Source: an uncultured Eubacteriales bacterium
Lineage (GTDB): Bacteria; Bacillota; Clostridia; Oscillospirales; CAG-272
Direction: 5' to 3'
NCBI GenBank assembly: GCA_900549725.1
Contig: URPL01000002.1
Location: forward strand, 17,077 to 81,076
Length of the DNA: 64,000 nt
Of this stretch, positions 15,612-49,611 are shown piece by piece. A model generated the notes under the pieces. It worked only from the letters and a program-made list of their open reading frames with translations. It had not been told where the DNA came from and made no database searches. The position numbers were made by a program, and so were the translations under genes. Each line of letters begins with the position of its first letter. The first letter of the stretch is position 1.

Positions 15612-15719
15612 GGTATATATATAATGGAAGCAAGTTTCAAAAAACCGACGCGGACAAGCCGCAATAAGCGTTTTTTTCGATATCCTGCGCCCTGCCGCGC
15701 GGAAAGACGAGGACAAAGC

Positions 15720-18674: not shown

Positions 18675-18678
18675 TTTT

Positions 18679-19794: not shown

Positions 19795-19818
19795 GAAACG
19801 AGAAAATGGAAAAAGGCT

Positions 19819-20094: not shown

Positions 20095-20125
20095 AAGAAT
20101 CAATCCGAAAAGAAAGGATGCTATC

Positions 20126-22048: not shown

Positions 22049-22077
22049 TTTTCACGACTTTTGCGGAGGACGAGGCT

Positions 22078-23037: not shown

Positions 23038-23090
23038 TGGTTTTGCGCAAGCGGATGACGAAAGTATAAAGAAAGGATTCATCTTTCAAA

Positions 23091-36926: not shown

Positions 36927-37865
36927 TTAAAATTGCTTGCAGGGTTTAAGCGCAGGGGCTTCCGGGTCTTCATTTGTACCGACAACCGCCTGTCCCAACG
37001 CAAAAAAGGAGCCGGAGGCATCGCACAGGCGCACATAGGCGCCATTTGGAAGTGCAAGCCCGAGCTTTTTCAGGCTTACCGCAAGTCCCGCGCGGCACAG
37101 ACGCTCAAAAAAGGCTGGCAGACGCACGGCGGGATATTGCAAAAACAGATGTTCCGTCGGCAAAAGGAGCGCGCAGCGCTGCGCGGGGCTCATTGCCTCC
37201 AAGGCTTCAAAGCAGATGCTTTCCCGCTCGGAAAACGGCCCGCTTTGCGTGCGCCGCAGCGCCGCCATCACGCCGCCGCAGCCGAGCGCATTTCCGATAT
37301 CCTCGCACAGCGTTCGGATATAGGTGCCCTTGGAGCAATGCACGCGCAGGGAAAAATCCGTTTGGCTGAGCTGTGTTGCCGAGATGGAATAAATTGTGAT
37401 GGGACGGGGGGTGCGCTCCGCGGTAATGCCCTGTCGCGCCAGATCGCACAGCTTTTTGCCGCCGACCTTGAGCGCCGAATACATCGGCGGGCACTGCATG
37501 GATTGCCCCGCAAAGCTCTGAGCGGCGGCATAAATCGCTTCGGGCGGCGCAATTCGGTCAAAGCGCTTTGTCACCGTGCCGCTGATATCCTGCGTATCGG
37601 TGCAAAAGCCCAGGCGCAAAACCGCCTCATAGCACTTATCCTTTTCCGTCAGATATTCCGCGGCTTTTGCCGCTTTTCCGACCAGAATCGGTAAAACGCC
37701 CTCCGCCATTGGATCGAGTGTGCCCGCATGGCCGACTTTTTTTGTGCCGTACAGGCGCCGCACCCGCGCAACGCAGTCAAACGAGGTGCAGCCCTGCGGC
37801 TTATATAAATTGAGCACGCCGCAGGGCTCTGTGCCCGCGGCGGCTTTTGCAAGCGTATCGTTCAT
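36927..37865 (-). CDS. truB: tRNA pseudouridine(55) synthase
   Basis: GVLNLYKPQGCTSFD and HAGTLDPMAEGVLPI (catalytic Asp) are present. The ATG at 37865 overlaps the nrnA stop (ATGA). Confidence 0.93.
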   Translation of the reverse strand: MNDTLAKAAAGTEPCGVLNLYKPQGCTSFDCVARVRRLYGTKKVGHAGTLDPMAEGVLPILVGKAAKAAEYLTEKDKCYEAVLRLGFCTDTQDISGTVTKRFDRIAPPEAIYAAAQSFAGQSMQCPPMYSALKVGGKKLCDLARQGITAERTPRPITIYSISATQLSQTDFSLRVHCSKGTYIRTLCEDIGNALGCGGVMAALRRTQSGPFSERESICFEALEAMSPAQRCALLLPTEHLFLQYPAVRLPAFFERLCRAGLAVSLKKLGLALPNGAYVRLCDASGSFFALGQAVVGTNEDPEAPALKPCKQF

Positions 37866-38869
37866 ACGGGCGCCTCTTTCCCAAGCTGCGCCGCCACGGT
37901 GCGCAAAACGGCTTGCTCCGCCAGCTGCGGCGTCTTTGCAAAAACGGTGCAGCCGGCAGCCTTTTCGTGCCCGCCGCCACCGAGCGCTTTGCACACATCG
38001 CAGACATTGGCATCGCCCTTTGCGCGCATGGAAACCTTATATTCCGTATCGCCGCGGTTTTTCAGATGAATTGCAATGCGGATGCCACGAATGGAGCGGA
38101 TGAGGTTGACAACATCGTCAATATCTTCTTCGCACAGTCCGTTTTCCGCCATCAGCGCCTCCGAAAAAGTGACAATGCCGACCGTGTTGTCGAAGAAAAG
38201 ATGCAGATTTTCAAGCGCAACGCGCTGCGCTGTGAGCTGCGAGAGCGGTCGCTCTTCATAAAGCGCGCAGTTGATGGCGGCGGCATCGATTCCGCAGGAT
38301 AAAAGAGCCCCGGCAAGAAAATGGGTGCGCGCCGTGGTGTTGGAATAGCGAAAAGCGCCCGTATCGGTGTTGATGCCGGTATACAGTGCCCGCGCGATCG
38401 GCGCGGTCAGCTCGCCGCAGCACAAAACAAGATCCGCAATGATCTCCGCGCAGGCGGCGGCGCCGGCATCGCAAAAGCACTGCTGCGCAAACGGGGTGGA
38501 AACGCGGTGATGGTCAACGGAAAGCGCAACGCCGTGTTCGCTCAGAAACGGCGCGGCGTCCCCGGTCATGCCAAGGCTTGCAACATCGACCGTGAGCACT
38601 GTTTTCCCCTGCAGAAGCGCCGCTGCCCGCGCTGCGGAAAACACCGTAATGCCGGCGCTTTCCCATAGAAACGCATAGCGCGCCGGCGGGGTGTCCGGGC
38701 AGATAAATTCGCAGCGCTTTCCGACAGCGCGCAAAAAGTCGCGCAGGGCAATGCCGCTGCCCAGGGCATCGCCGTCGGCATGGGCATGGCAGAAAATCAC
38801 ATAATCGTCCCCTGTGCGCAGCGCTGTCCAAAGCGCAGGGGTAAATTCAAACAGAGAAGGTTTCATCAT
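37862..38869 (-). CDS. nrnA: DHH/DHHA1 phosphoesterase, NrnA-like oligoribonuclease/pAp phosphatase
   Basis: HAHADGDALGSG, the DHH motif (SVDHHRV) and DHHA1 GGGHEKAAG are present. The start MMKPSLFEF follows GGAGGA. It occupies the conserved rbfA-nrnA-truB position. Confidence 0.85.
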   Translation of the reverse strand: MMKPSLFEFTPALWTALRTGDDYVIFCHAHADGDALGSGIALRDFLRAVGKRCEFICPDTPPARYAFLWESAGITVFSAARAAALLQGKTVLTVDVASLGMTGDAAPFLSEHGVALSVDHHRVSTPFAQQCFCDAGAAACAEIIADLVLCCGELTAPIARALYTGINTDTGAFRYSNTTARTHFLAGALLSCGIDAAAINCALYEERPLSQLTAQRVALENLHLFFDNTVGIVTFSEALMAENGLCEEDIDDVVNLIRSIRGIRIAIHLKNRGDTEYKVSMRAKGDANVCDVCKALGGGGHEKAAGCTVFAKTPQLAEQAVLRTVAAQLGKEAPV

Positions 38870-39287
38870 CCGCTTCCTCCTGCCCCGCAAGAGATGCCTG
38901 CGCCTCTGCGGCGTCGCGGGCGTCCGCCGCGCGCAGCGATTCCTCCACGCCGTGCAAAAGGGCGGAAATTTTCGCGCCGTGCGCCATGGAGCCATCCTCA
39001 AGGAAGCTCAGCTCCGGGGTAATGCGCAGATTGAGCTTTGCGGCAAGGCAGCGGCGGATATAGCCCGCCGCGCTGTAAAGCCCCTGCTTTATCGCTTTGT
39101 GATCAATCGGCTTTCCCTGCTCCATCACGGAATAATAAATTTTTGCGTATTTCAGGTCCGGCGTTACGGAGCAATGCGTAACGCTGATGAAGTTGCGGGC
39201 AATGCGCGGGTCCTTGATATTGCGCAGAATGATCGCCATTTCATTTGTAAATTGTTCGTTGATGCGGTCGATGCGATAATTTCCCAT
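38847..39287 (-). CDS. rbfA: Ribosome-binding factor A (with acidic C-terminal tail)
   Basis: The start MGNYRIDRINEQF follows GGGAGA. The RbfA pattern DPRI...ISVTHCSVTPDLKYAKIYYS...LNLRITPELSF is present. Confidence 0.9.
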   Translation of the reverse strand: MGNYRIDRINEQFTNEMAIILRNIKDPRIARNFISVTHCSVTPDLKYAKIYYSVMEQGKPIDHKAIKQGLYSAAGYIRRCLAAKLNLRITPELSFLEDGSMAHGAKISALLHGVEESLRAADARDAAEAQASLAGQEEADDETFSV

Positions 39288-39291
39288 AGTG

Positions 39292-39813
39292 TTATTCTCC
39301 CGTAAAATCGCCCGAAAGCCGCGCAAGAATCAGCGCGCTGCAGGCGGTTGCTGTTTTTTGATCGTTTAATACAAACAAAGTGCTCTCTCCGCCCGATTGC
39401 CGCAGAGAAAGGCAGCGCCCATGCGCCGAGCAGGCTTCAAGGCGATTATAGTGATATTCAAGGCGTGTCGGCGGCTGCTGCTCCGCGGAAAAGAAAACAA
39501 TGCCGCGCGCAAAGAGATAGAGCCTGCCGCCGGGCAGTCGACGGCTGTGCCGAATGTATTCCTGCTTTTGGGACGGGGGCACAATCCGCTCTCGGCACTG
39601 CACCGTGTGCAGAATCGGCTCGGAAAAGGATTGTTCAAGTTCGCGGTAACGGCGGCTGATGCGGGAAAGAAGAGGATAGGATGCGCCCGCGCAGAAAATG
39701 CCGAAGCACCCGCCGGCACCGATACAAAAGCGTTGCTGCGCATTCGTGCAAAGGCGCAGCGCAAAAAACAGGGCAAGACCGAGGCACAGCCCGATGCAAA
39801 GGTTCTTTCGCAC
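39292..39813 (-). CDS. Hypothetical small membrane protein (two predicted TM helices plus an approximately 105-aa soluble domain)
   Basis: The GTG start at 39813 (VRKNLCIGLCLGLALFFALRLC...) is chosen so the ORF does not overlap the acetyltransferase. Hydrophobic segments are NLCIGLCLGLALFFALRLC and FCIGAGGCFGIFCAGASYPLL. The C-terminal part (GRLYLFARGIVFFS...) loosely resembles a bacterial PH/GRAM-like pattern. No family was recognised with certainty. Confidence 0.45.
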   Translation of the reverse strand: MRKNLCIGLCLGLALFFALRLCTNAQQRFCIGAGGCFGIFCAGASYPLLSRISRRYRELEQSFSEPILHTVQCRERIVPPSQKQEYIRHSRRLPGGRLYLFARGIVFFSAEQQPPTRLEYHYNRLEACSAHGRCLSLRQSGGESTLFVLNDQKTATACSALILARLSGDFTGE

Positions 39814-39833
39814 CTCGCCCGTTCCTTTGCCGC

Positions 39834-40433
39834 TCACCGAAGGCTCTCGCCTGGCGCGGTGCGATATTTCTCGCGGTCCTTTTCCGTGAGCTTTCGGATT
39901 ACGCGGCAGGGGTTGCCCGCCGCAAGCACGCCGGCGGGAATATCGCGCAGAACGACGCTGCCGCAGCCGATGACGGCGTTGTCCCCGATGGTAACGCCGC
40001 CGATGATGGTTGTGCTGCCGCCGATCCATACCCCGTTTCCGATGGTGACCGGAAAGGCGTATTCCAGACCGTCGCGCCGCTGCTGCGGGTCAAACGGGTG
40101 CCCTGCGGCATAAATGCTGACATTGGGGGCAATGAGCACATTATCGCCGATGCGGACCATATTCCCGTCCAAAACGATAAAATTATAGTTGGCAAAAAAG
40201 TTTTCGCCCACCTCGATATGATAGCCGTAATCGCATTTGAACGGCGGCAGAATGTCTACCTTTTCTCCCGTTTTGCCGAGGATTTTTTTGATGGCTGCCG
40301 TGCGCTCCTCCAAATGGGAGGGCGGAATTTTGTTGTATTCAAACACGGCGTCCTGAATTTTGTAGCGGTGCTTTACAAGCTCTCCGCTCGGCAGGTAAAG
40401 ATAGCCTGCCTCCATTTTTTCTTTTTCCGTCAT
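39834..40433 (-). CDS. Sugar O-acetyltransferase (Maa/LacA-type, hexapeptide left-handed beta-helix)
   Basis: An N-terminal Mac-like segment (MEAGYLYLP...) and hexapeptide repeats (IGDNVLIAPNVSIY, IGNGVWIGGSTTIIGGVTIGDNAVIGCGSVV) are present. The ATG overlaps the stop of the upstream helicase (ATGA). Confidence 0.85.
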   Translation of the reverse strand: MTEKEKMEAGYLYLPSGELVKHRYKIQDAVFEYNKIPPSHLEERTAAIKKILGKTGEKVDILPPFKCDYGYHIEVGENFFANYNFIVLDGNMVRIGDNVLIAPNVSIYAAGHPFDPQQRRDGLEYAFPVTIGNGVWIGGSTTIIGGVTIGDNAVIGCGSVVLRDIPAGVLAAGNPCRVIRKLTEKDREKYRTAPGESLR

Positions 40434-42700
40434 TTGGCTTGCTCCTGCTCTGTTTTTGTTTTTTCCTGTTCCGCGCGCATACGCTTCAGTGCCGCAGCCG
40501 CTGCGGCCGGGTCCAACCGGTCGAGCGCAAATGCTTTTTTCAAAAGCGCTGCGGGAATCATGGGGTCGTATTTTTCAAAAATCGGCGTTTCTCCGGCGCC
40601 GATCAGGCTTTGCGGGTCGATGCCGTTTTCGGAAAGGCTGCACAGCGTATCAAAAAAGTGCGCCGCGGCGCCGTCCTCCAGCCGAAACACCATAAAGTAG
40701 CATCCCTCATACGAAAGATTGGAAAGCCCGAGCCCGGCGGCATGGGCTTTCAGATAGCGGCGCAGCGTGCGGAAGGCGCGTGTGCCGAGCCATGGAAACA
40801 GCGCATAGCTCATGCCGCCCAGCGACAGCAGCGGTTTTTGCGCAAGATGCGTTGCGCGGGCGAGGGCTCTTGCCGTGCGCAGGCGTGCCATGGCGTTTTC
40901 TTTCAGATAGGGATATTCGGTATCCTCCAACAGGATTTGGCGCATGCGCTGCACGATTTTGGTGTGCACCTCGCCGTAGTCGCCCGGCCAGGAAACTTCC
41001 ATTTTTCCGGGCACGCTTTTCACAAAGACAAGCTTGCGCCCCACATCCAGCTCCGTGACCTCCCAAACGCGCCCCGCCAGGGCGAAACGGTCGCCGACGG
41101 GCACGGGCGAGGTGATCGTGCCGATTTCGTCCGATTCGCATCGCACGGAAAATTCGGCGTTTTGGTCGCGAAAGACGGCAAAAAAGCGGAAATTGTTGAT
41201 CAGCTTTTCGCCGCGCAGCCCGAGAATCAGCCCCTTTTCCTCCGTCATTTCAAGATAATCCGATGCAATCATGCCGATCAGCAAAGCCTTGTAATCGGCG
41301 GGGTCGATGTGTTCAAAGGGCGGCAGGGTCAACACGCGCTGCGCAAGCGCACGCGGGCTGAGCTCCCCGCAGGCGCCGAGCACGGAAAGCGTTTGATGAA
41401 ACAGCAGGCTCAGCGGCATCTTGCGCGTGCGCGGGGGTTCTATGAATTGCTCCTCCAGCGTCAGCTGCACCAGCGCAATGCCGCGCAGAAGATTCCAGGG
41501 AATCAGCTGCGGCAGGGGCGTCTCCGGTGTCGGGTTTTCTTCCCGAAAGACCATCATCATCTCGGGCGGCGCGCCGCGGCGGCCGCTGCGCCCCAGGCGC
41601 TGCAAAAATGAGGAGACGGAGTGCGGAGCTTCGGCCTGCATCACGCGGTCGAGCCGCCCGATATCAACGCCGAGCTCCAGGGTGACCGTGGCGCAGGTGA
41701 CGATGTTTTGCGCATCATCCTTCATTTTTGCTTCCGCTTCCTCCCGCAGCGCGGCGGAGAGATTTCCGTGGTGGATCAAAAAGCGGTCCGGCTCGCCCCG
41801 CCTTGCCGCAATCTGCCGCAGCGTGGCGGTGAGAAATTCCGTTTCTTCGCGGGAATTGGAAAACACAAGCGCTTTTTTCTCTTTCACGCAGGCATAGATA
41901 TATTCATAGCCCGCGTCGATCGCCGCTCGCTGCTCCGTTTTGCCGGAAAGCGGCGCCGATTGATCCGGCGCGTCGTTTTGTACAAAGAAATGCTCCATGC
42001 CAAGGCGAATGCGCCGATGCGCCTCTGCTGTGTCCGGGTGCTGCACGGCTATATCCGTGCCCCCCGCAAGCCAGCGCGCCGCGAGCTGCGGCTCGCCCAT
42101 GGTGGCGCTTAGCCCGATGCGGCGCGGGGTATGCCCGATCAGGCGCGCAATGCGGCAGAGCTGGCAGAGGATCTGATCGCCGCGGTCGGAACCCATGAGC
42201 GCATGAATCTCATCAATCACCACAAAGCGCAGATCGCAAAATAATCTGTAGATATCGTTCGGACGGCGCAAAAGCATTGCCTCCAGGCTTTCCGGGGTGA
42301 TTTGCAGAATGCCGCGCGGACAGCGCAAAAGCGCCTCTTTTTGAGAGGAGGGCACATCTCCGTGCCAATGCGTTACGGGAATGCCCGATTCGTCGAGCAG
42401 GGTCTCCATGCGGTAAAACTGATCGTTGATCAGGCTTTTCAGCGGCGCAATATAGAGGCAGCCGATACTCTGCGACGGGTCCTCCCAAAGCATAGTCAGA
42501 ATCGGGAAAAACACGGCCTCCGTTTTGCCCGAGGCGGTGGAGCCGGAAAGCAGTAAATGGTCCTCGCTCTCAAACAGGACCCGCGCCGCCGCCGTTTGTA
42601 CGGCGCGCAGCTCCGCCCAATTCTGCCGATAGATAAAATCCTGCACAAAGGGAGCGTAGCGGTCAAAAAGAGCCCCTTGTGCCATAGCTTCGTTTGACAA
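40430..42700 (-). CDS. Superfamily-2 DEAD/DEAH-box helicase, Lhr-like (BrxHI-like)
   Basis: The TTG start at 42700 is preceded by GGAGGA with 7-nt spacing. Helicase motifs are I (GSTASGKTEA), II (VVIDEIHAL), III (LSATMG) and VI (FLQRLGRSGRRG). The protein is 756 aa, with a large C-terminal domain as in Lhr-core proteins. Confidence 0.85.
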   Translation of the reverse strand: MSNEAMAQGALFDRYAPFVQDFIYRQNWAELRAVQTAAARVLFESEDHLLLSGSTASGKTEAVFFPILTMLWEDPSQSIGCLYIAPLKSLINDQFYRMETLLDESGIPVTHWHGDVPSSQKEALLRCPRGILQITPESLEAMLLRRPNDIYRLFCDLRFVVIDEIHALMGSDRGDQILCQLCRIARLIGHTPRRIGLSATMGEPQLAARWLAGGTDIAVQHPDTAEAHRRIRLGMEHFFVQNDAPDQSAPLSGKTEQRAAIDAGYEYIYACVKEKKALVFSNSREETEFLTATLRQIAARRGEPDRFLIHHGNLSAALREEAEAKMKDDAQNIVTCATVTLELGVDIGRLDRVMQAEAPHSVSSFLQRLGRSGRRGAPPEMMMVFREENPTPETPLPQLIPWNLLRGIALVQLTLEEQFIEPPRTRKMPLSLLFHQTLSVLGACGELSPRALAQRVLTLPPFEHIDPADYKALLIGMIASDYLEMTEEKGLILGLRGEKLINNFRFFAVFRDQNAEFSVRCESDEIGTITSPVPVGDRFALAGRVWEVTELDVGRKLVFVKSVPGKMEVSWPGDYGEVHTKIVQRMRQILLEDTEYPYLKENAMARLRTARALARATHLAQKPLLSLGGMSYALFPWLGTRAFRTLRRYLKAHAAGLGLSNLSYEGCYFMVFRLEDGAAAHFFDTLCSLSENGIDPQSLIGAGETPIFEKYDPMIPAALLKKAFALDRLDPAAAAAALKRMRAEQEKTKTEQEQAK

Positions 42701-42741
42701 CGGTTTGTCCTCCGTTCCTCGGTGATGTTTCCGGTCGGCGC

Positions 42742-44094
42742 TTAAAAGTCTAAATCGGCAAAGGTGACGGTGCTCTTCTCCTGCGGCGCTGCCGATGCGG
42801 GCGTTTCCTTTGCGTCCTGCTCTTCTTCTCCCGGCGCTGCATGGGCAAGGGTCACGGTCTTTTGCACAATGCTTTCATAGGTGGCATCCGGGTTTTGATA
42901 AAGCAAATTGAGCACGGCGCAGAAATCGCGCAGGATTTCGCGCGGGGTGATCATGGTGTCGGCGCCGGCGCGGGCAAGGCAAAGAGACACAAAATCTTCG
43001 AGCTCGGCATCGCTCAGGCGCACCTGCCAGCCGTAATATTCTCCGTGCAGCCGCGCCATGCGCTGCACCAGCGCCAAAAGCTCGTCGTCGCTCAGGCGCT
43101 TTAATCGAATCACGGGAGAGAGCATGTCCACATAGCCGCCGGCGGAAAAGCGGTCGTCACACAGGCGGCTTTTGAGCGCGTCATAGCTGTAAAGCCCGCG
43201 CCGCTCGTCCTCCAGAAAACGCGGCGTTCCGCCGAGCAGCAGCATCAGGTGCTGCGCTTTGCCCTGCAGGGTGTCGTTGAACATGGAAAGAATTTTTTCA
43301 TAGTTGTTTTCCCGGCTTTGGCGATTTGCAATTTTATAAAGATTTACACATTCATCGATCATGACCACAAAGCCGCGATAGCCGATCTTTGCAAAAAAGA
43401 CAGCCCAAAGCTTGAGATAATCATACCAGTTGTCGTCTCCGATCACGGCGTTGACCGCAAGGGAGGCCTTGGCTTCGCTTCTTGTACGGGTTTCGCCGCG
43501 CAGCCAGCGCAGCGCCGCTGCGCGGGTTTCGTCGTCGCCGTCGCGATCGGCTTTATAATATGCGCTCAGAACCGCGCCGAAATCAAAGCCGCCGATCTGT
43601 GTCTGCAGCTGCTGCAAAACGGCGAAAATTTTTCGGTTTACCGCGTCCGAAAATTCCACAGTGCACGGCGCAAAGCCTGCCGCGGCCGCCTCGCTTTGCA
43701 GCGCGGAAAACCATTTAGCAAGCACGACCGTGAGCGCGCCGCCCTCTGCGGCGGTTTTTTCGGAGAGGTTTCGGATCAGCTCGCGATAGGTCGCCAGCCC
43801 TCCGCCGTTTGATGCGCAGAGTCTGCGCTCAGGCGAGAGATCGCAATCGGCGCAGACGAAGCCCTGCTCCAGCGCATAGCCGCGCAAAAGCTGCATCAGA
43901 AAGCTTTTACCGCTGCCGTATTTTCCGATGAGAAAGCGCATGGAGGCGCCACCCTCGGAAATCAGTGAGAGATCGCGGCAAAGAGCCTGCATTTCCGCGC
44001 CGCGCCCGATGGCAAGATATGCGGCGCCCGTGCGCGGCACAACTCCTGCGCCGACCGAGGCGAGCAGGGCGGAAAGAATTCGTTTCGGTATCAT
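42742..44094 (-). CDS. P-loop ATPase, DUF2791 / BrxD-like
   Basis: Walker A GKYGSGKSFL and Walker B VVMIDECVNLY are present. The length (450 aa) and the N-terminal VP..G...LAIGR..E...L..DL...EGG.S.RFLIG pattern match what I remember of PF10923 proteins. The assignment was made by eye only. Confidence 0.65.
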   Translation of the reverse strand: MIPKRILSALLASVGAGVVPRTGAAYLAIGRGAEMQALCRDLSLISEGGASMRFLIGKYGSGKSFLMQLLRGYALEQGFVCADCDLSPERRLCASNGGGLATYRELIRNLSEKTAAEGGALTVVLAKWFSALQSEAAAAGFAPCTVEFSDAVNRKIFAVLQQLQTQIGGFDFGAVLSAYYKADRDGDDETRAAALRWLRGETRTRSEAKASLAVNAVIGDDNWYDYLKLWAVFFAKIGYRGFVVMIDECVNLYKIANRQSRENNYEKILSMFNDTLQGKAQHLMLLLGGTPRFLEDERRGLYSYDALKSRLCDDRFSAGGYVDMLSPVIRLKRLSDDELLALVQRMARLHGEYYGWQVRLSDAELEDFVSLCLARAGADTMITPREILRDFCAVLNLLYQNPDATYESIVQKTVTLAHAAPGEEEQDAKETPASAAPQEKSTVTFADLDF

Positions 44095-44136
44095 GATGCA
44101 GCCTACCCCCTGATTTTTGAAAGCTTTGTTTCATTA

Positions 44137-44165
44137 TAGTATACCACACCGCATGCCCACGGTCA
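44137..44165 (-). promoter_or_regulatory. Strong sigma-A-type promoter for the ATPase-helicase operon
   Basis: The minus strand reads TTGACC (44165-44160), a 17-nt spacer, then TATACT (44142-44137) with an upstream TG. A second overlapping TATAAT follows. Confidence 0.55.
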
Positions 44166-44206
44166 ACGCGAAAATGCGATTTTCCCGCCGAAATTGCGGA
44201 AGGCTC

Positions 44207-44235
44207 TTGACGCGGTGCGATTTGCGTGCTATGAT
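44207..44235 (+). promoter_or_regulatory. Sigma-A-type promoter for the cysteine desulfurase gene (divergent from the promoter at 44137-44165)
   Basis: TTGACG (44207-44212), a 17-nt spacer, then TATGAT (44230-44235). Confidence 0.5.
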
Positions 44236-44293
44236 GTGCTGTAATACGGCGCCCTTGGCGGTGCCGATCTTTGATTTTTTCGAGAGGCATACC

Positions 44294-45484
44294 ATGAAAC
44301 GGACGGTGTACGCGGATCATGCGGCGACTGCCCCGCTGCGCCCCGAGGCGCTTGCGGCAATGCTGCCGTTTTTCTCCGATGAATTTGCAAATCCATCCTC
44401 TCTGCACTCCCCGGGGGAGCGGGCGGCAAAAGCAGTGCGCGCGGCGCGTGCCGAGATGGCGGCGGTGCTTGACTGTGCACCGGGCGAGGTTGTATTTACA
44501 AGCGGCGGAACCGAGAGCGATAACCTTGCGCTGCACAGCGCGGCACAGGCGGGGCGGCGCGCCGGCAGGACGCATCTGATTGTCAGCGGCGTTGAGCATC
44601 ATGCGGTGCTGCGGGCGGCGGAAGAGCTGCAAAGACAGGGCTTTTCCCTGAGCGTTTTGCCTGTGGACGGCGACGGGCGCGTGTCGGTGGAGGCTCTGCG
44701 TACTGCGCTGCGCCCCGATACGGCGCTGGTCAGCATCATGACGGCAAATAATGAAATCGGCACGGTGCAGCCCATTGCCGCGCTTTCCCGCGTTTGCGCG
44801 GCGGCGGGCGTTCCGTTTCATACGGACGCGGTGCAGGCTGTCGGGCATTTGCCGCTTTCCTTTGCGGCGCTCGGGGGCGATTATCTTTCGCTCAGCGCGC
44901 ATAAATTCGGCGGACCGAAGGGCGTCGGTGCGCTGCTTGTCCGCAAAGGAGCCCCGTTTGTTCCGCTTTTGCGCGGCGGCGCTCAGGAACGAGGGCGCAG
45001 AGCGGGGACGGAGAATGTGCCGGGAATCCTCGGCATGTCAAAGGCGCTTTCCTGCGCGGCGGCGGAGCAGGAGCCGGAAAGCAAGCGGCTTGCGGGACTG
45101 GGAAAAAAGCTCTGCCGCGGAATCGCCGAGATTCCGCATGTGAAGCTCAACGGCGGCGGCGAGCGGCTCCCGGGGATTGTTTCCGTTTGCTTTGAGGGAA
45201 TTGAGGGGGAATCGCTTCTTTTGATGCTGGATAACGAGGGCATCTGCGCCTCCGCGGGTTCCGCCTGCGCCTCCGGCTCACTGGAGCCGAGCCATGTGCT
45301 CACGGCGATCGGTGTCCCTCCGCAGCTTGCACTCGGCGCTTTGCGCCTTTCCCTCGGTGCCTTGACGACCGAAGCGGACATCGACCGTATTTTGCAGGTG
45401 CTGCCGCCGCTTGTGGCGCATCTGCGGGAATTTTCTCCGCTTTGGGCTGAACTTTGCGCCGGAACAAAGCCGCACCTTGCCTGA
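44294..45484 (+). CDS. Cysteine desulfurase, NifS/IscS family (class V aminotransferase)
   Basis: YADHAATAP, TSGGTESDN, the PLP-lysine region SLSAHKFGGPKG and the active-site loop SAGSACASG are present. The ATG at 44294 follows GAGAGG. Confidence 0.9.
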   Translation: MKRTVYADHAATAPLRPEALAAMLPFFSDEFANPSSLHSPGERAAKAVRAARAEMAAVLDCAPGEVVFTSGGTESDNLALHSAAQAGRRAGRTHLIVSGVEHHAVLRAAEELQRQGFSLSVLPVDGDGRVSVEALRTALRPDTALVSIMTANNEIGTVQPIAALSRVCAAAGVPFHTDAVQAVGHLPLSFAALGGDYLSLSAHKFGGPKGVGALLVRKGAPFVPLLRGGAQERGRRAGTENVPGILGMSKALSCAAAEQEPESKRLAGLGKKLCRGIAEIPHVKLNGGGERLPGIVSVCFEGIEGESLLLMLDNEGICASAGSACASGSLEPSHVLTAIGVPPQLALGALRLSLGALTTEADIDRILQVLPPLVAHLREFSPLWAELCAGTKPHLA

Positions 45485-45576: not shown

Positions 45577-46068
45577 TTAAAAAGGTTCGCCCGGCAGACC
45601 GGCTGTCAGGATGATTTCTTTTCCAAGGGCACGCGCATAGCGGACGGTATGCCCTGTTCCGCTGCGCGAACGGTTATAGAATGCTACACAGACTGCGCTG
45701 CGCTCCACCAAAGCATTGTCGCGTCTGAGAAATGTTTCACGTGAAACAAAGTCGCTTTCACACAAAAATTCGACGGTATCGGCTGCGCACAAAACTGCAT
45801 TGTAACGAGCCCGCCATTCGCGCGTCCACCGTTTTTGCTGATTGCGGCAAGGCAGAAGCATGCAGAGGCGGAGCTCCGGCAGCTGCGCGCGCAGCGCAAG
45901 AACCGCCTCGGCAGCCATGAGATCAAACCCCATTGCGCCGCCGCTGTAAAAGAAGCGAAAGCCTCGCGCATAAAGCGAGCGGATCTGCTGCGGCAGCCAG
46001 GTATTGAGATACAGGCGGTTTGCCTCATGCATGACGCGGTGCCCGGTAAAGCAGACGGAATGCTCCAT
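45577..46068 (-). CDS. SLOG-superfamily protein, DUF1273 / YpsA-like
   Basis: The 163-aa ORF starts CFTGHR and contains F..GGA.GFD..AAE..L patterns (FYSGGAMGFDLMAAEAVL) and GTGHTV, typical of DUF1273 from memory. Confidence 0.7.
   Translation of the reverse strand: MEHSVCFTGHRVMHEANRLYLNTWLPQQIRSLYARGFRFFYSGGAMGFDLMAAEAVLALRAQLPELRLCMLLPCRNQQKRWTREWRARYNAVLCAADTVEFLCESDFVSRETFLRRDNALVERSAVCVAFYNRSRSGTGHTVRYARALGKEIILTAGLPGEPF
45733..45748. repeat. Perfect 16-bp palindrome TGTTTCACGTGAAACA, copy 2 (inside the DUF1273 coding region)
   Basis: It was read directly from the sequence and encodes FVSRETF on the minus strand. Confidence 0.9.
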
Positions 46069-46142
46069 GCCCTTTCCCCCTTCGTGTTGCCAAAGGCAAG
46101 CTGTTTTCGCTGCCCGCGATTTTGAGATGCGTGCTTTGCGGG

Positions 46143-47306
46143 TCAGTGGCGATCGAGTGTGAGAACAACGCGATAACGGGGATCAAGCGCCTGCAGCGCG
46201 TTTTTGATCTGCTGCAGCTTTTTCTCATATTCCGATTCTTTTTGCGAAAGCGGAACGACAATGTCGAAAATCAGGTTGATCTGCTGCTCTCCGTCCGTGA
46301 TGCGGAAATCGTGAAAGGAATAGGCGGGATCCACCTCGGCAATCACCGCGGCAAGGCGTTCCCGCAGCGCATCCAGCCGCGGGTCGTCCGTAATGATCGG
46401 ATCCATATGGATTACAAGCGTTGTGCCGAGCTCCGTTTTTGCCCGCTGCTCCAATGCGTCGATCACCTCGTGCGTGCGGCAAAGATCGCAATTTGCGTCG
46501 ACCTCCGCGTGCACGGAGGCAATGTTGCGTCCGGGGCCGTAGTTGTGAATGATAAGATCGTGCGCGCCGAGTACGCCTTCCCCGCTGAGCACAAGCGCGC
46601 GCAAAGAGGAGGTGAGCGCTTCGTCCGGCGCCTCCCCGATGAGCAGATCAATGGTTTCTTTGGCAACGGAAATGCCACCGCGCAGAATCAGCAGGGAAAC
46701 GCAAACACCGAGCAGCGCATCCATCGGGAACGAGACAAACAGCCCGAGCACGGAACCGAGCAAAACGACGGTTGTGGCAATCGCGTCAAACAGGCTGTCC
46801 TGTGCGGCTGCACGCAGCAGGACGGAATCGATGCGTTTGCCGATGCGCCGATTATACCAAAACATAAAAAGCTTGCACAGCACGCTGAGCAGCAAAATGA
46901 CAGCTGTCAGCACGGAAAATGTAACCGGAGCGGGCGAAAAGAATTTTTCCACAGAGCTTTTGCCAAGCTCAAGCCCTACCAAAAGAATCATCACGGCAAC
47001 GCAGAGAGCCGCAATATATTCAAGTCTGCCGTGCCCGTAGGGGTGTTTTTCGTCCGGCTGCTGCGCGCTGAGCTTTGCGCCGACAACGCCGACGGCGGAG
47101 GAGCCGAGATCGGAGAGGTTATTGAAGGCGTCCGAAAGCACGGCGACCGAGCCGCTGAGAAGCCCCGCGGCGAGCTTTATACCGAACAGGCAAAGGTTGA
47201 AGAAGATGCCGAGCAGACCGCAAAACAGCTCATAGCGGGCGCGTGCACGCGGAGAAAGACCCCCTCCGTCGTCGCCCGCAAAGCGGCGAATCAAGGAAAG
47301 CAGCAT
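46143..47306 (-). CDS. Cation diffusion facilitator family transporter
   Basis: Six hydrophobic segments are present, with the metal-site motifs LSDAFNNLSD and HGRLEY-type residues. A C-terminal cytoplasmic domain (IHNYGPGRNIASVHAEV) follows. Confidence 0.88.
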   Translation of the reverse strand: MLLSLIRRFAGDDGGGLSPRARARYELFCGLLGIFFNLCLFGIKLAAGLLSGSVAVLSDAFNNLSDLGSSAVGVVGAKLSAQQPDEKHPYGHGRLEYIAALCVAVMILLVGLELGKSSVEKFFSPAPVTFSVLTAVILLLSVLCKLFMFWYNRRIGKRIDSVLLRAAAQDSLFDAIATTVVLLGSVLGLFVSFPMDALLGVCVSLLILRGGISVAKETIDLLIGEAPDEALTSSLRALVLSGEGVLGAHDLIIHNYGPGRNIASVHAEVDANCDLCRTHEVIDALEQRAKTELGTTLVIHMDPIITDDPRLDALRERLAAVIAEVDPAYSFHDFRITDGEQQINLIFDIVVPLSQKESEYEKKLQQIKNALQALDPRYRVVLTLDRH

Positions 47307-47318
47307 GGCGAGCCTCGC

Positions 47319-48302
47319 TTATGTGCGCCGCTGCAGCTTTTGCAGGCGGACGTCGCGCCCCTGGAACAAAAGCGCCCGAGAGGAGCCGAACAGGCGGGAA
47401 ACGATGCGATCCTGATATTTTTTTTGCAGCTCGTCCGCACCGAGGTTTGTATTGATGATCCACGGCTTTTCGCGATTGATGCGCGCATTGAGCAGCTCGT
47501 ACAGGCAGGAAACGGAATACTGTGTGATCGGTTCCGTCCCAAGGTCGTCCAAAATGAGCAAATCGCAGCAGGCGGGACGCATGTTCGGCGCGGCATCGTC
47601 TTCCCGGGAAAAGCGTGTTTCTTCAAAGGTGCGGAACAGCTCCGCCGCCGTGACATAATATACATCGTATCCTTTTTCCATCACCTGCCGTGCGATTGCG
47701 GTGGAAAGGTGCGTTTTTCCGAGACCTGTCGGACCGGTCAGCAGCAGCCCCTGCGTGGTGGTTTCGTCAAAAGAGGAGGCATAGCTGCGGCAAATTTCAA
47801 GATTTTGTTCCATACGGGTGCGCTCTGCGCCCGTGTAAAAGGAAAGGTCAAAGCTTTCAAAGCTTTGTGTGCGGATCAGGGCACCGAGCCCGGAATGCTC
47901 AAAGCGTTCCATCGCAAGCATTTTTTTCAGGCAAATGCACATTTTCCCGTCCGTATAACCCGTGTCCTTGCACAGGGGGCAGGCATAGCGCGGCTGCAGA
48001 TAATCCGAGGGAAAGCCCGCTGCGCGCAAAAGCTCTTCGCGGTCGGAGAGCAGTGCGTCGATGTTAGCTTTCTGTGCGTCGATGCGCGCGTCGAAAGCGG
48101 CTTTGTCCTCCCGGCTGTGCGCCGAAATCGCGCTTTTCATCAGCGCAAACCCAAGCTGCTTGGTTGCGGCGTCTACCTGTGCAATTTCCGGGCATGCCGC
48201 ATAGACCTCGGCGCGGCGCAGCTGCGCTTCCAGCTCGGCGCGGGTGCGGGAGGCTGCAAGACGGTCCTTCGCTGCCCGCAGATATTGGGCATCCTGCTTC
48301 AT
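47319..48302 (-). CDS. DnaC/DnaI-like AAA+ helicase-loader ATPase (IstB-like fold)
   Basis: An N-terminal zinc-module-like CPLCKDTGY...CICLKK is present. Walker A is LLLTGPTGLGKTHL and Walker B is LLILDDLG. It is paired with an upstream DnaD-domain gene. Confidence 0.8.
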   Translation of the reverse strand: MKQDAQYLRAAKDRLAASRTRAELEAQLRRAEVYAACPEIAQVDAATKQLGFALMKSAISAHSREDKAAFDARIDAQKANIDALLSDREELLRAAGFPSDYLQPRYACPLCKDTGYTDGKMCICLKKMLAMERFEHSGLGALIRTQSFESFDLSFYTGAERTRMEQNLEICRSYASSFDETTTQGLLLTGPTGLGKTHLSTAIARQVMEKGYDVYYVTAAELFRTFEETRFSREDDAAPNMRPACCDLLILDDLGTEPITQYSVSCLYELLNARINREKPWIINTNLGADELQKKYQDRIVSRLFGSSRALLFQGRDVRLQKLQRRT

Positions 48303-48374
48303 AGTTTTCTCCTTTTGTCTGTTACGCGCACCGCGCGTTTGTCTTTTTGTGCGGGAAAAAGCGATTGCTTGCGG

Positions 48375-49436
48375 TCAATTTACTTTGTCCTGCTGCTGGG
48401 GTTGCGCTTCGTTTTGCGGCAGCTCGACGCCGTAAGAGCGTGCAAGTGCGGCATCCAAAAAGGCGGAGGATTCAAAGCTGTGTTTTTGCTGCGCAGAGGC
48501 ACCGTTTTTATCCCGCGCGGCACGAAAGGCGGCTTCTTTTTCCTGTGCCTGCGCCGCCGTTGTAATGCCGTCTTCATGCGCGCGGCGCAGCACCTTTGCC
48601 ATATAATTCAGCGTCGGGCGGGTTGTATGTGCTACGGTTTGCTCATAGGCAAACTGCAAAAGCTCGTCGGAAATATCCCAAGAGGTAAGCTCTTCCACGG
48701 TTTTTTTCTCTTTTGCGGTGAGCGCGCGCTCGCCGAGGCCGAGCAGGCGGCGCAGCTTCTGCTCCGTTTGCTCCGTGCGGTCCAAAAAGGCGAAGCGCTC
48801 CTGAAGCGCGCCGACGGTCGTGATGCCGTCGTCATACAGCCCGGCGGCGGTCGCTTCTATGTAGCGCATATTTGCCTTGTTCTTTTTGGCAAGATATGCA
48901 AGCAATGACAAAATATAGTGCGCGTCGAATCCGAAATAGTCGTGCAGTGCCACCAAAGAAGCAACCTCGTGTTCGGAAAACACCTTGCCGACCACGGTTT
49001 GCGCCAGCTCGATCATGGGGCTTGCCTCTGCATCGGAGGTCAGGATGTGCGCAATTTCCTCATTGGAGTAGGCGGGAATGCGATTTTTGCGCGGGCGGCC
49101 CGGCAGCGGTTGCGCCGTTTTTTGCACGGGAGAGGGAGCCTGCGGAGAAACCGGGGAGAGCTGCGGAGCTTCTTTTTCGGGCTGCTGCAAAACGGCGGGA
49201 ACTAAAAGCCCCTGCTCTGCCAATGACCCGACGGCATCCTGCGCCGCCGCAAGCGAAACGCCTGCCGCAGCGGCGATCGCCTCATATTTTGTTTCGGTGT
49301 CAATGCGCAAATCCGCATTCGCGGCAAGGGCAAGCAAAACTTTTGCACAGTCCCCGCCAAGCGTCGGCAATGCGCGCAGGACAGCCTCGCGCGGCAGATT
49401 GATCACGCCGAAGCCGTACGAAAAAATAAAATGCAT
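48375..49436 (-). CDS. DnaD/DnaB-domain replication protein
   Basis: The start MHFIFSYGF follows GGTGGTGA. An N-terminal winged-helix-like segment, a Pro/Gln linker and two DnaD-type C-terminal repeats (YILSLLAYLAKKNKANMRYIEATAAGL and TLNYMAKVLRRAHEDGITT) are present. Confidence 0.72.
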   Translation of the reverse strand: MHFIFSYGFGVINLPREAVLRALPTLGGDCAKVLLALAANADLRIDTETKYEAIAAAAGVSLAAAQDAVGSLAEQGLLVPAVLQQPEKEAPQLSPVSPQAPSPVQKTAQPLPGRPRKNRIPAYSNEEIAHILTSDAEASPMIELAQTVVGKVFSEHEVASLVALHDYFGFDAHYILSLLAYLAKKNKANMRYIEATAAGLYDDGITTVGALQERFAFLDRTEQTEQKLRRLLGLGERALTAKEKKTVEELTSWDISDELLQFAYEQTVAHTTRPTLNYMAKVLRRAHEDGITTAAQAQEKEAAFRAARDKNGASAQQKHSFESSAFLDAALARSYGVELPQNEAQPQQQDKVN

Positions 49437-49472
49437 GTCATTCACCACCTTGCGGCACAGTCGCCGCGCATA

Positions 49473-49489
49473 GTCATAATTGTGACCAT
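49473..49489. repeat. 17-bp near-palindromic motif GTCATAATTGTGACCAT, copy 2 (overlaps the likely promoter of the DnaD-like gene)
   Basis: It matches 29484-29500 exactly. It lies 122 nt inside the inner boundary of repeat copy 2 and 37 nt upstream of the DnaD-like ATG. Confidence 0.8.
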
Positions 49490-49611
49490 GCACGCCTTTC
49501 AATCCGTTTTTTCAAAAATCCGTTTTTTTGAAGCAGCAGGAAAGCTGCTCCAAAAAATTTGCAGCAAAGAATTCGGTTTTTGTGCCGAGCACATAAAAGC
49601 CCGGAACGCGG

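What the first reader, a model, noticed from the sequence alone, without database searches (positions are those of the whole stretch)
39292..44165. Stand-alone BrxD-like ATPase + Lhr/BrxHI-like helicase module with no other BREX/Pgl genes, located directly upstream of rbfA
What the sequence shows:
- Two tightly linked minus-strand genes sit behind a near-consensus promoter (TTGACC-17-TATACT, 44165-44137).
- The first (42742-44094, 450 aa) has Walker A GKYGSGKS and Walker B VVMIDE.
- The second (40430-42700, 756 aa) has SF2 motifs GSTASGKT / DEIH / SAT / QRLGRSGRRG and a long C-terminal domain, i.e. Lhr-type.
- The helicase stop overlaps the ATG of a Maa/LacA-type O-acetyltransferase (ATGA).
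- A 2-TM protein and rbfA-nrnA-truB then follow, with gaps of 4-20 nt or overlapping ends.

Established knowledge, from my memory of the original BREX classification:
- Type 2 BREX/Pgl loci carry brxD (a DUF2791/PF10923 P-loop ATPase) followed by brxHI (an Lhr-like helicase), in this same order.
- There they sit next to pglW/X/Y/Z.

What is absent:
- No methyltransferase, PglZ phosphatase or kinase occurs anywhere in this 64 kb.

Inference:
- This is an orphan ATPase-helicase pair that may act autonomously, for example as a minimal defence or DNA-damage/recombination module.
- It sits where nusA-infB normally precede rbfA.
- It is the most accessory-looking content in an otherwise housekeeping window.
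Basis: partly seen in the sequence, partly recalled or inferred. Interest (0 to 1): 0.7.

Follow-up and report, generated by a model that had tools for sequence, protein, structure and literature searches.

The report
Shango ATPase–helicase pair without TerB
Two intact genes just upstream of rbfA encode the ATPase and helicase of the Shango anti-phage system (cousins of BREX BrxD/BrxHI) but not its third, TerB-type gene; related gut Clostridia keep the same pair and promoter at the head of a housekeeping gene string, so this is a modest new variant of a known system.

Summary
Two minus-strand genes (42742-44094, 450 aa; 40430-42700, 756 aa) sit behind a near-consensus promoter and carry the stated motifs. 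They run with overlapping or 4-nt junctions into maa, a 2-TM ORF, rbfA, nrnA and truB.

The ATPase is a strong PF10923 member. However, both proteins match the Shango models SngB and SngC far better than BrxD and BrxHI, and the ATPase fails NCBI's BrxD cut-off.

Canonical Shango has a third gene, sngA (TerB_N/TerB_C), directly upstream of sngB. A 69-sequence SngA profile finds none in the 64 kb window. It also finds none in the same-species contigs or in three other SngA-less lineages.

Of 80 related species loci, 71 have sngA next to sngB. The SngA-less loci group together in an SngB tree, apart from one (L072).

A lineage about 70% identical has the same block, sngB-sngC-maa-small TM-rbfA-nrnA-truB-proBAC, and the same promoter. 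That points to vertical inheritance.

A sister genome carries sngB and sngC on separate contigs, so sngA could lie elsewhere in this genome.

Verdict: a new variant of a known kind, of moderate interest. Function is inferred, not shown.

The parts
44138..44166 (-). Sigma-70-type promoter TTGACC-17-TATACT with a TG-extended -10, driving sngB
   Evidence: Consensus scan, 10 of 12 with TG; sequence read. The block GCGTTGACCG...TGTGGTATACTATAA is conserved in L101 inside an otherwise diverged spacer.
42742..44094 (-). sngB: PF10923 (BrxC_BrxD family) P-loop/AAA+-type ATPase, 450 aa. Walker A is GKYGSGKS and Walker B is VVMIDE.
   Evidence: Pfam 1.8e-152. PADLOC SngB 1.4e-161 against BrxD 4.2e-50. 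NCBIfam BrxD 169 bits, below the 350 cut-off. Retains all ~150 columns that are invariant among 26 homologues.
40430..42700 (-). sngC: Lhr-like SF2 DEAH-type helicase, 756 aa, TTG start
   Evidence: DEAD plus Helicase_C. PADLOC SngC 3.7e-240, full length. Best PDB relatives are Lhr 5v9x/7lhl at 5e-31, then YprA/MrfA. Foldseek top hit is 5v9x, from a low-confidence model. Within-species pN/pS is about 0.1.
39834..40433 (-). maa/lacA-type hexapeptide O-acetyltransferase, ATGA-coupled to sngC
   Evidence: Mac plus Hexapep domains. NCBIfam maltose/galactoside O-acetyltransferase about 1e-57, below the equivalog cut-offs. 88% identical and in the same position in L101. Absent next to sngC in L002 and L050.
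39292..39837 (-). Small predicted 2-TM protein (181 aa, GTG start, GTGA-coupled to maa), no family match
   Evidence: No Pfam or PADLOC hit. Within-species pN/pS is 0.1-0.2. A 165-aa ORF occupies the same position in L101 but has no detectable similarity.
38847..39287 (-). rbfA, 4 nt after the 2-TM ORF
   Evidence: PF02033 1.4e-29; junction read.
37862..38869 (-). nrnA-like DHH/DHHA1 phosphoesterase; its likely ATG at 38869 overlaps the end of rbfA
   Evidence: DHH and DHHA1 domains; same order in L101.
36927..37865 (-). truB, ATGA-coupled to nrnA; last gene of the tightly packed string
   Evidence: TruB_N 7.6e-52. A weak terminator-like hairpin follows at 36847-36828.

Best explanation
This is a chromosomally fixed derivative of the three-gene Shango defence module (SngA TerB-like protein, SngB ATPase, SngC helicase) that lacks SngA.

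Shown:
- The two proteins are full-length, motif-intact members of the SngB and SngC families.
- They are linked and sit behind a phylogenetically conserved promoter.
- They head a gap-free gene string: sngB-sngC-maa-2TM-rbfA-nrnA-truB.
- The whole block is inherited vertically across roughly genus-level divergence.
- No SngA lies nearby in any member of this sub-clade.

Inferred:
- The string is one transcription unit, expressed constitutively together with the ribosome- and tRNA-maturation genes.
- SngB is an ORC/Cdc6-like AAA+-type ATPase. It oligomerises with ATP and loads or activates SngC on DNA, as proposed for the homologous BrxD-BrxHI dyad.
- SngC translocates 3'->5' on single-stranded DNA, as Lhr does. 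It unwinds or strips abnormal or invading DNA.
- The most likely role is still interference with phage or other mobile DNA.
- In canonical Shango the TerB partner probably supplies triggering or regulation. Here it has been lost (my slight preference) or acts from another locus.
For: Family assignment:
- PADLOC gives SngB 536 bits and SngC 797 bits, both full length. That is 2-3 times the BrxD and BrxHI scores. PF10923 scores 1.8e-152.
- The relatives' upstream TerB_N/TerB_C proteins match PADLOC SngA at 1e-40 to 6e-63.
- A Clostridium estertheticum plasmid shows the canonical order, TerB_N protein - ATPase - helicase, next to relaxase and IS genes.

Absence of SngA:
- tblastn with a relative's SngA finds nothing in the window. 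PADLOC on 138 window ORFs lists no SngA.
- A profile of 69 SngA sequences finds only the positive control (1.4e-173). It finds nothing at E<=10 in the window or in L001, L089, L090, L101, L102, L002, L050, L009-13, L103-105 and L108.

Phylogeny and inheritance:
- In an NJ tree of SngB the loci without an adjacent sngA cluster together: window, L001-4, L009-13 and L021 in one clade, with L050 basal beside it. L072 is the one exception, inside an AB- clade. 71 of 80 species loci are A-linked.
- L101 and L102 carry the same 10-gene order and the same promoter footprint. Identities to the window are SngB 71%, SngC 70%, RbfA 71%, TruB 64%, ProB 79% and Maa 88%.
- Three same-species contigs are collinear with the window at 99.3-99.4% nt identity, and both genes are intact in all of them. 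SngC pN/pS is 0.08-0.16.
- G+C is 0.58-0.60, like the flanks.

Mechanism leads:
- The nearest solved relatives of SngC are the Lhr core, then MrfA.
- The SngB model gives weak AAA+ and ORC/Cdc6 matches.
- BrxD is classed as an ORC/Cdc6 AAA+ ATPase and forms a tightly linked dyad with BrxHI. It has been proposed as a loader or activator of that helicase (PMC12839542).
- BREX type 2 shows that this kind of dyad can work with no TerB protein.
Against: - No experiment bears on function. Shango's own mechanism is unknown in the literature I could search.
- Only 64 kb of the genome is visible, so SngA may be encoded elsewhere. Assembly GCA_965320665.1 keeps sngB and sngC on different contigs.
- The A-less SngB proteins show the same conservation profile as the A-linked ones. 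Only three conservative diagnostic changes separate them. That would fit a retained SngA interaction.
- SngB pN/pS within the species is 0.3-0.8, but on only 5-7 changes.
- Structural support is thin. The SngB Foldseek matches have TM <= 0.38. The SngC model has pLDDT 64 and pTM 0.38.
- Co-transcription with rbfA is inferred only from gene spacing and the lack of another consensus promoter.
- The locus sits in a core region about 25 kb from dnaA, not in a defence island.
Confidence: 0.45

Rival explanations
1. Split but complete Shango. The genome still encodes SngA at another locus, and the three proteins act together in trans. The pair would then be neither orphan nor autonomous.
For: - One sister assembly has lone sngB (L108) and lone sngC (L104) on separate contigs. 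Both are full-length matches to the PADLOC models.
- 21 of 80 loci have sngA-sngB with no sngC within at least 2.5 kb (about 10 kb in most), and lone sngC genes exist.
- A-less SngB proteins are as conserved as A-linked ones, with only F245M/I, T347A and Y391F as diagnostic changes.
Against: - In every A-linked locus sngA lies immediately upstream of sngB, usually abutting or overlapping it. The A-B junction is the most conserved feature of the family.
- Yet every member of one SngB sub-clade lacks it, in at least four different genomic contexts.
- No lone sngA was seen in any fetched locus.
Confidence: 0.3
2. Domesticated host DNA-maintenance module. In this Oscillospiraceae-like lineage the ATPase-helicase pair no longer serves immunity. 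It acts instead in repair or replication restart, as Lhr-type helicases do.
For: - The pair is embedded in a housekeeping string near oriC and is probably expressed constitutively.
- It is inherited vertically at a housekeeping-like rate.
- Relatives sit tightly against repair genes: sngB-nth in L010, L011, L012, L105 and L108; udg-sngC in L103; sngC-addB-addA in L085.
- Other relatives sit against alaS, valS or bacA-ftsK.
- The best NCBIfam hit for SngC is the ligase-associated DNA-damage-response DEXH helicase family, at 216 bits, far below its cut-off.
Against: - The repair-gene adjacencies are few and partly share descent. I did not test them formally, and by my rough estimate they do not exceed chance.
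- Some related loci do border RM or Ssp-type genes.
- The family's only tested function is anti-phage (PMC10250203; Millman preprint).
- No LexA-type box lies near the promoter, though that test was uninformative.
Confidence: 0.15
3. Remnant of a BREX type 2 (Pgl) locus. On this reading the genes are brxD and brxHI left behind after loss of pglW/X/Y/Z.
For: - PF10923 is named for BrxC/BrxD.
- The BrxD and BrxHI models do hit, at 4e-50 and 2e-123.
- The gene order, ATPase then helicase, is the same.
Against: - The Shango models score 2-3 times higher over the full length.
- NCBI's BrxD equivalog gives 169 bits against a cut-off of 350.
- 71 of the 80 best-matching related species loci carry a TerB_N/TerB_C gene upstream of sngB.
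- No fetched locus that I annotated, and no PADLOC scan of flanks from 13 loci, showed a PglX or PglZ gene.
Confidence: 0.03
4. Decaying leftover with no function. It would be retained only because its promoter now drives rbfA-nrnA-truB.
For: - The promoter footprint is conserved.
- The downstream essential-type genes lack another consensus promoter.
- SngB within-species pN/pS is 0.3-0.8 on very few changes.
Against: - Both ORFs are intact in four same-species assemblies and in L101, L002 and L050.
- All catalytic motifs and about 150 (SngB) and about 300 (SngC) invariant columns are kept.
- SngC pN/pS is about 0.1.
- About 3.6 kb of dead coding sequence would not stay open across roughly 30% protein divergence.
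Confidence: 0.04

Closest known systems
Shango (SngA-SngB-SngC; Millman et al. 2022 preprint 10.1101/2022.05.11.491447; Johnson et al. 2023, PMC10250203)
   Same: SngB and SngC are full-length best matches to the PADLOC models. Gene order is B then C. The relatives form canonical A-B-C operons.
   Different: No TerB_N/TerB_C SngA gene lies in the 64 kb or in the related A-less loci. The pair sits in a housekeeping gene string near oriC rather than on a mobile island or plasmid. It is translationally coupled to maa, a small membrane ORF and rbfA. Anti-phage activity has not been tested.
BREX type 2 BrxD-BrxHI dyad (PMC12839542)
   Same: A PF10923 ATPase is followed by an Lhr-like SF2 helicase as a tightly linked pair. 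This dyad shows that the pairing can operate without a TerB protein. It is also the source of the loader/activator hypothesis.
   Different: Scores are much lower than for the Shango models and fall below NCBI's BrxD cut-off. No BrxC, PglX, PglZ or PglW is present.
Lhr / Lhr-core helicases (M. smegmatis Lhr, PDB 5v9x and 7lhl) and the ligase-associated DEXH helicase family TIGR04121
   Same: These are the closest solved structures by sequence (5e-31) and by fold search. The best NCBIfam hit is TIGR04121. The DEAH-type motifs are shared.
   Different: The PDB sequence match to Lhr covers only the helicase core, residues 38-302; TIGR04121 aligns residues 19-602. The WH_Lhr hit is below threshold at E 0.009. 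TIGR04121 gives 216 bits against a cut-off of 850. Lhr proteins are not paired with a PF10923 ATPase.
MrfA/YprA-family helicases (PDB 6znp) of DISARM, Dpd and Druantia
   Same: Second-best structural and sequence relatives. PADLOC DpdJ and DruE hits at 1e-17 to 1e-30. SngC, BrxHI, DruE and DpdJ were grouped as one defence-associated SF2 clade in PMC12278908.
   Different: No DUF1998-type C-terminal domain was detected, and the scores are far weaker than for SngC.

Membership tests
Shango | SngB: PF10923-type ATPase matching the SngB model | tested here: met
   PADLOC PDLC03959 at 1.4e-161, residues 2-418 on model positions 6-422 of 439. Walker A and B intact.
Shango | SngC: DEAD/DEAH helicase matching the SngC model, encoded next to sngB | tested here: met
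   PADLOC PDLC03960 at 3.7e-240, residues 12-736 on model positions 6-715 of 720. Lies 41 nt downstream of sngB.
Shango | SngA: TerB_N/TerB_C protein encoded directly upstream of sngB | tested here: not met
   The upstream neighbour is a divergent class-V aminotransferase gene. tblastn, PADLOC on 138 ORFs and a 69-sequence SngA HMM find nothing in 64 kb. The rest of the genome cannot be examined.
Shango | Confers resistance to phages when expressed | not testable with these tools
   Shown only for the Pseudomonas aeruginosa PA14 and E. coli three-gene systems.
BREX type 2 (Pgl) | BrxD by NCBI's equivalog model NF033438 | tested here: not met
   169.2 bits against a cut-off of 350.
BREX type 2 (Pgl) | Core genes BrxC/PglY, PglX methyltransferase, PglZ and PglW in the locus | tested here: not met
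   None among the PADLOC hits of all window ORFs of at least 120 aa. None in the neighbourhoods of L101, L002 or the other relatives I annotated.
BrxC_BrxD superfamily (Pfam PF10923) | Score above the Pfam gathering threshold over the whole domain | tested here: met
   508.5 bits against a threshold of 22.2, model positions 1-412 of 414.
Lhr helicases | Lhr-type helicase core (RecA1, RecA2, WH, domain 4) | tested here: inconclusive
   The PDB sequence match to 5v9x at 5e-31 covers only residues 38-302. WH_Lhr is at E 0.009, below threshold. Foldseek puts 5v9x on top (1.5e-15, TM 0.29), but the model is poor, with pLDDT 64.
Lhr helicases | 3'->5' ssDNA translocase and helicase activity | not testable with these tools
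   Biochemistry is needed.

The most novel reading that the evidence does not exclude
In this group of gut Clostridia, the ATPase-helicase engine shared by Shango and BREX type 2 may have been domesticated. On this reading it works without any TerB partner and is transcribed constitutively with rbfA-nrnA-truB near oriC. It would serve host chromosome maintenance (repair or replication restart), or a permanently 'on' DNA surveillance, rather than an inducible, mobile defence. The scattering of sngA-sngB, sngB and sngC next to nth, udg, addAB and alaS in relatives would then reflect integration of a former defence system into core DNA metabolism.
Probability: 0.15. Interest if true: 0.65.

Novelty: new variant of a known kind. 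Interest (0 to 1): 0.38.

Why it matters
**A mechanistic handle.** Shango's mechanism is unknown, and so is the role of the homologous BrxD-BrxHI dyad in BREX type 2. A natural lineage has kept only the ATPase-helicase pair, intact and under its own conserved promoter, across genus-level divergence. That suggests the dyad is the separable engine and the TerB protein an exchangeable or dispensable input. It also offers a minimal two-gene construct for biochemistry.

**A gap in automated annotation.** As I recall them (not checked here), the rule sets of defence-annotation tools require all three Shango genes in one locus. If so, they will miss such pairs, and also the lone or split sngA-sngB, sngB and sngC loci that appear common in gut Oscillospiraceae-like genomes. 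Defence content in these taxa would then be under- or mis-counted.

**A regulatory consequence.** If transcription from the sngB promoter really reads through into rbfA-nrnA-truB, a defence-derived module has become the leader of a ribosome- and tRNA-maturation operon. That would constrain how it can be regulated.

Tried and rejected
**Checked and rejected**
1. BREX type 2 remnant. Rejected on comparative model scores and the failed BrxD cut-off, and because the relatives carry TerB genes rather than Pgl genes.
2. SngA hidden in the window, or replaced by a fused domain. tblastn, PADLOC and a custom HMM are all negative. SngB and SngC align end to end with the models and have no extra domains.
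3. The 2-TM ORF or Maa as a conserved Shango partner. Both are absent next to sngC in L002 and L050. The L101 counterpart of the 2-TM ORF has no detectable similarity, and neither protein gives a TerB hit.
4. Other PADLOC hits in the window (mad3, mad8, DpdF, SspA/DndA). I did not map them to individual ORFs. Given the Pfam annotation of the large window genes, they most likely reflect gyrase and topoisomerase subunits, the PriA/UvrB helicases and the NifS-like desulfurase, not defence genes.
5. Recent insertion or mobile element. There is no G+C anomaly, the arrangement is identical in four same-species assemblies, and the same block occurs in L101. No relatives were found in viral contigs.

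**Tried, but inconclusive or uninformative**
6. Conserved flanks across the family. All-against-all clustering of neighbours in 89 sequences (88 fetched loci plus the window) found no flanking family in more than 10 loci. The data therefore point neither to a universal position nor to a clear defence island. PADLOC on the flanks of 13 loci gave a few RM or Ssp hits among mostly housekeeping genes.
7. SOS control. No Cheo-type box lies near the promoter. The pattern was also under-represented window-wide, so the test says nothing.
8. RNA elements. No Rfam match between 33 and 47 kb.
9. Structure. The SngB model (pLDDT 74) gave only weak AAA+, ORC/Cdc6 and RdrA matches. The SngC model was poor. 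SngB has no sequence relative in the PDB.
10. Anantharaman et al. 2012 on Ter systems is not held in the library. Its prediction of a TerB-ATPase-helicase system is cited from memory only.


Full report
**1. The observation**

The translations contain the stated motifs:
- ATPase: GKYGSGKS and VVMIDE.
- Helicase: GSTASGKT, DEIH, SAT and QRLGRSGRRG.

A divergent promoter-like site at 44207-44235 faces the class-V aminotransferase (NifS-like) gene on the other strand.

A consensus match alone means little. The scan found 5 sites against 3.1 +/- 1.7 expected in shuffles. What makes this site credible is conservation, described in section 4.

The junctions are as described:
- The sngC stop and the acetyltransferase start share ATGA.
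- The acetyltransferase stop and the GTG start of a 181-aa two-TM ORF share GTGA.
- rbfA starts 4 nt after that ORF.
- The rbfA/nrnA and nrnA/truB ends overlap.

No Rfam family matches between 33 and 47 kb.

**2. What the proteins are**

The ATPase is an end-to-end PF10923 (BrxC_BrxD) protein, at 1.8e-152.

Defence-system models separate two sub-families, and both genes fall on the Shango side:

| Protein | Shango model | BREX model |
|---|---|---|
| ATPase | SngB, 536 bits (1.4e-161) | BrxD, 169 bits |
| Helicase | SngC, 797 bits (3.7e-240) | BrxHI, 411 bits |

NCBI's curated BrxD model gives 169 bits against a cut-off of 350.

Shango is a three-gene anti-phage system:
- It comprises a TerB-like protein, an ATPase and a DEAD/DEAH helicase.
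- It was validated in P. aeruginosa PA14 and in E. coli (PMC10250203; preprint 10.1101/2022.05.11.491447).
- I found no mechanistic study of it.

For the helicase, the nearest solved structures by sequence are mycobacterial Lhr (5v9x and 7lhl, 5e-31, core only), then B. subtilis MrfA/YprA. A fold search with a low-confidence AlphaFold model (pLDDT 64) ranks the same two first. 'Lhr-like' is therefore a fair description, but membership of Lhr proper is not established.

SngB has no sequence relative in the PDB. Its model (pLDDT 74) gives only weak matches (TM <= 0.38) to RdrA, HslU and ORC/Cdc6 proteins. That is compatible with the published ORC/Cdc6-type AAA+ classification of BrxD, but does not prove it (PMC12839542).

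**3. The missing third gene**

In canonical loci sngA lies immediately upstream of sngB, usually abutting or overlapping it. One example is a Clostridium estertheticum plasmid with a TerB_N protein, an ATP-binding protein and a DEAD/DEAH helicase next to relaxase and IS genes.

In the window the upstream neighbour is the divergently transcribed aminotransferase gene. Three searches for SngA were negative:
- tblastn with a relative's SngA.
- PADLOC on all 138 other ORFs of at least 120 aa.
- A profile HMM built from 69 SngA proteins.

The HMM recovered its positive control at 1.4e-173. It found nothing at E <= 10 in the window or in any related A-less locus.

The other PADLOC hits in the window (mad3, mad8, DpdF, SspA/DndA) were not mapped to individual ORFs. 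They most likely belong to housekeeping paralogues, since the window carries dnaA, gyrB, gyrA, topA, uvrA, uvrB, metG and priA. The cumulative GC-skew minimum falls at about 17-18 kb. This is therefore the origin region, and the pair lies about 25 kb from dnaA.

**4. Relatives**

The family is very large in Clostridia:
- A protein search saturated at 8000 hits.
- 587 of the first 600 pattern matches in GTDB species genomes encode a relative. The best is only 65% identical, so this species is not among the representatives.

I classified the 80 best loci with phmmer, using window proteins and a relative's SngA:

| Arrangement | Loci |
|---|---|
| A-B-C | 33 |
| A-B with C 0.2-2.5 kb away | 11 |
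| A-B, no C within at least 2.5 kb (about 10 kb in most) | 21 |
| A-B at a contig end | 6 |
| No A, despite at least 1.9 kb of upstream sequence | 8 |
| Uninformative | 1 |

In an NJ tree of SngB, the A-less loci cluster together. The window, L001, L002-4, L009-13 and L021 form one clade, and L050 sits basally beside it. L072 is the exception, inside an AB- clade.

Within that group there are at least four contexts:
- (i) The window type.
- (ii) L002: B-C between sortase/RlmA-like genes and an FkbH-like gene.
- (iii) L050: B-C after a PAP2 gene.
- (iv) L009-13, L105 and L108: sngB alone. In five of these loci it is followed 4-17 nt later by an endonuclease III (HhH-GPD) gene.

The most informative relative is L101/L102:
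- The gene order is sngB-sngC-maa-165-aa ORF-rbfA-nrnA-truB-proB-proA-proC, the same as in the window.
- The upstream flank is different.
- Protein identities to the window are SngB 71%, SngC 70%, RbfA 71%, NrnA 51%, TruB 64%, ProB 79% and Maa 88%.
- The pair therefore diverges like its housekeeping neighbours.
- In the spacer upstream of sngB, which has otherwise diverged, GCGTTGACCG and TGTGGTATACTATAA are conserved with the same 17-nt spacing.

Three same-species metagenome contigs are 99.3-99.4% identical to the window and collinear with it, and both genes are intact in all of them. Within the species, SngC pN/pS is 0.08-0.16. SngB pN/pS is 0.3-0.8, but on only 5-7 changes.

G+C matches the flanks. 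This is a long-resident, vertically inherited block, not a recent accessory insertion.

**5. Is the pair autonomous?**

This cannot be settled from 64 kb.

Points against assuming autonomy:
- Assembly GCA_965320665.1 carries a lone sngB (L108) and a lone sngC (L104) on different contigs. Both are full-length matches to the models.
- The ABC-transporter genes that precede the lone sngC in L103 and L104 also precede sngA-sngB-sngC in L031. The lone copies are therefore rearranged descendants of a complete locus.
- This clade evidently tolerates unlinked components.
- A-less SngB proteins have the same conservation profile as the 71 A-linked ones. Only F245M/I, T347A and Y391F are diagnostic.

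Points for real loss:
- The A-B junction is otherwise the most constant feature of the family.
- Every member of one SngB sub-clade lacks it, in every context.
- BREX type 2 shows that a homologous ATPase-helicase dyad can work with no TerB protein.

I lean slightly to loss.

**6. Likely mechanism**

Everything in this section is inference except the domain assignments.
- The gene string from sngB to truB has no gap above 41 nt and no other consensus promoter on its strand. A weak terminator-like hairpin follows truB at 36847-36828. I infer one constitutive transcript.
- By analogy with the proposal for BrxD-BrxHI (PMC12839542), SngB would oligomerise with ATP and load or activate SngC on DNA.
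- By analogy with Lhr, SngC would translocate 3'->5' on single-stranded DNA.
- The target could be invading DNA or damaged host DNA. That is open.

The only tested function in the family is anti-phage. The housekeeping embedding and the neighbours of relatives (nth, udg, addB-addA, alaS, bacA-ftsK) keep a repair or maintenance role alive. By my rough estimate those adjacencies are too few, and too dependent on shared descent, to count as evidence. I did not test them formally.

**7. Comparison and verdict**

- The pair works like, and descends from, Shango. It is not a full member, because the SngA criterion was tested and not met locally.
- It is not BREX type 2.
- It resembles Lhr only in the helicase core.
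- I rate it a new variant of a known kind.

It is of interest mainly as a natural minimal version of the ATPase-helicase engine shared by Shango and BREX type 2. It also shows that Shango-type genes in gut Clostridia often sit, whole or in pieces, inside core gene strings, where rule-based defence finders would miss them.

Noticed in passing
L108 (GCA_965320665.1 contig CBDNWG010000055.1) 5001-6455; L104 (same assembly, contig CBDNWG010000005.1) 9082-11334: One MAG carries a lone SngB gene and a lone SngC gene on separate contigs. The SngB gene is followed 17 nt later by an HhH-GPD/endonuclease III gene. Both proteins are full-length matches to the PADLOC models. The Shango components are therefore unlinked within one genome.
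   Followed up: partly
L085 8366-21292 (Ruminococcus sp. RUG12346): sngA-sngB-sngC is followed directly by addB and addA, with the start of addB overlapping the sngC stop. Then come ypsA on the opposite strand and rbfA. rbfA, nrnA or truB also lie within 10 kb of the Shango genes in L014 and L031. This hints at an old linkage between the Shango locus and the rbfA region in this order.
   Followed up: partly
L026, L047, L048, L078, L086, L088 (downstream of sngB): In six species sngA-sngB is followed 28-75 nt later by the same ~880-aa gene family, with no sngC within at least 3 kb (about 9-10 kb in five of the six). Pfam on the L026 member identifies it as alaS (alanyl-tRNA synthetase). Other A-B loci are followed by valS or by bacA-ftsK.
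   Followed up: partly
window 42742-44094 (SngB residues 245, 347, 391): Three positions are at least 93% conserved in 71 SngA-linked SngB proteins (F245, T347, Y391). In the SngA-less clade they are replaced by M/I, A and F. Two of the changes remove a hydroxyl group, so these may be partner-contact or modification sites.
   Followed up: no
window 39292-39837 (-); L101 12832-13329: The small 2-TM ORF between maa and rbfA has a positional counterpart in the lineage about 70% identical, but the two share no detectable similarity, although the neighbouring genes are 70-88% identical. Within the species its pN/pS is 0.1-0.2, so it is probably a real, fast-evolving gene of unknown function.
   Followed up: partly
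window 15624-25682: This is the chromosomal origin region. dnaA (15624-17192), gyrB (20126-22045) and gyrA (23091-25682) lie here, together with a G+C dip to 0.46-0.50 and the cumulative GC-skew minimum at about 17-18 kb. topA, uvrB, uvrA, metG and priA are also in the window.
   Followed up: partly
window 44207-44235 (+) and 44288-45484 (+): A second near-consensus promoter (TTGACG-17-TATGAT with TG) faces away from the sngB promoter, 40 nt from it, and would drive the NifS/IscS-like class-V aminotransferase gene. That gene gives strong PADLOC SspA/DndA hits, as any cysteine desulfurase would. No other dnd or ssp gene is present.
   Followed up: partly
window 45577-49502 (-): A YpsA-type SLOG protein, a cation-diffusion-facilitator transporter, a DnaC/IstB-like ATPase and a DnaD-like protein lie beyond the aminotransferase gene. 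The same set is present in the same-species contig L001.
   Followed up: no
PLSDB plasmids: 696 plasmid records encode SngB relatives, all no more than 50% identical. 449 are from Klebsiella and 144 from Salmonella, and most are conjugative. No relative was found in the viral contig collection with the motif-based scan.
   Followed up: no
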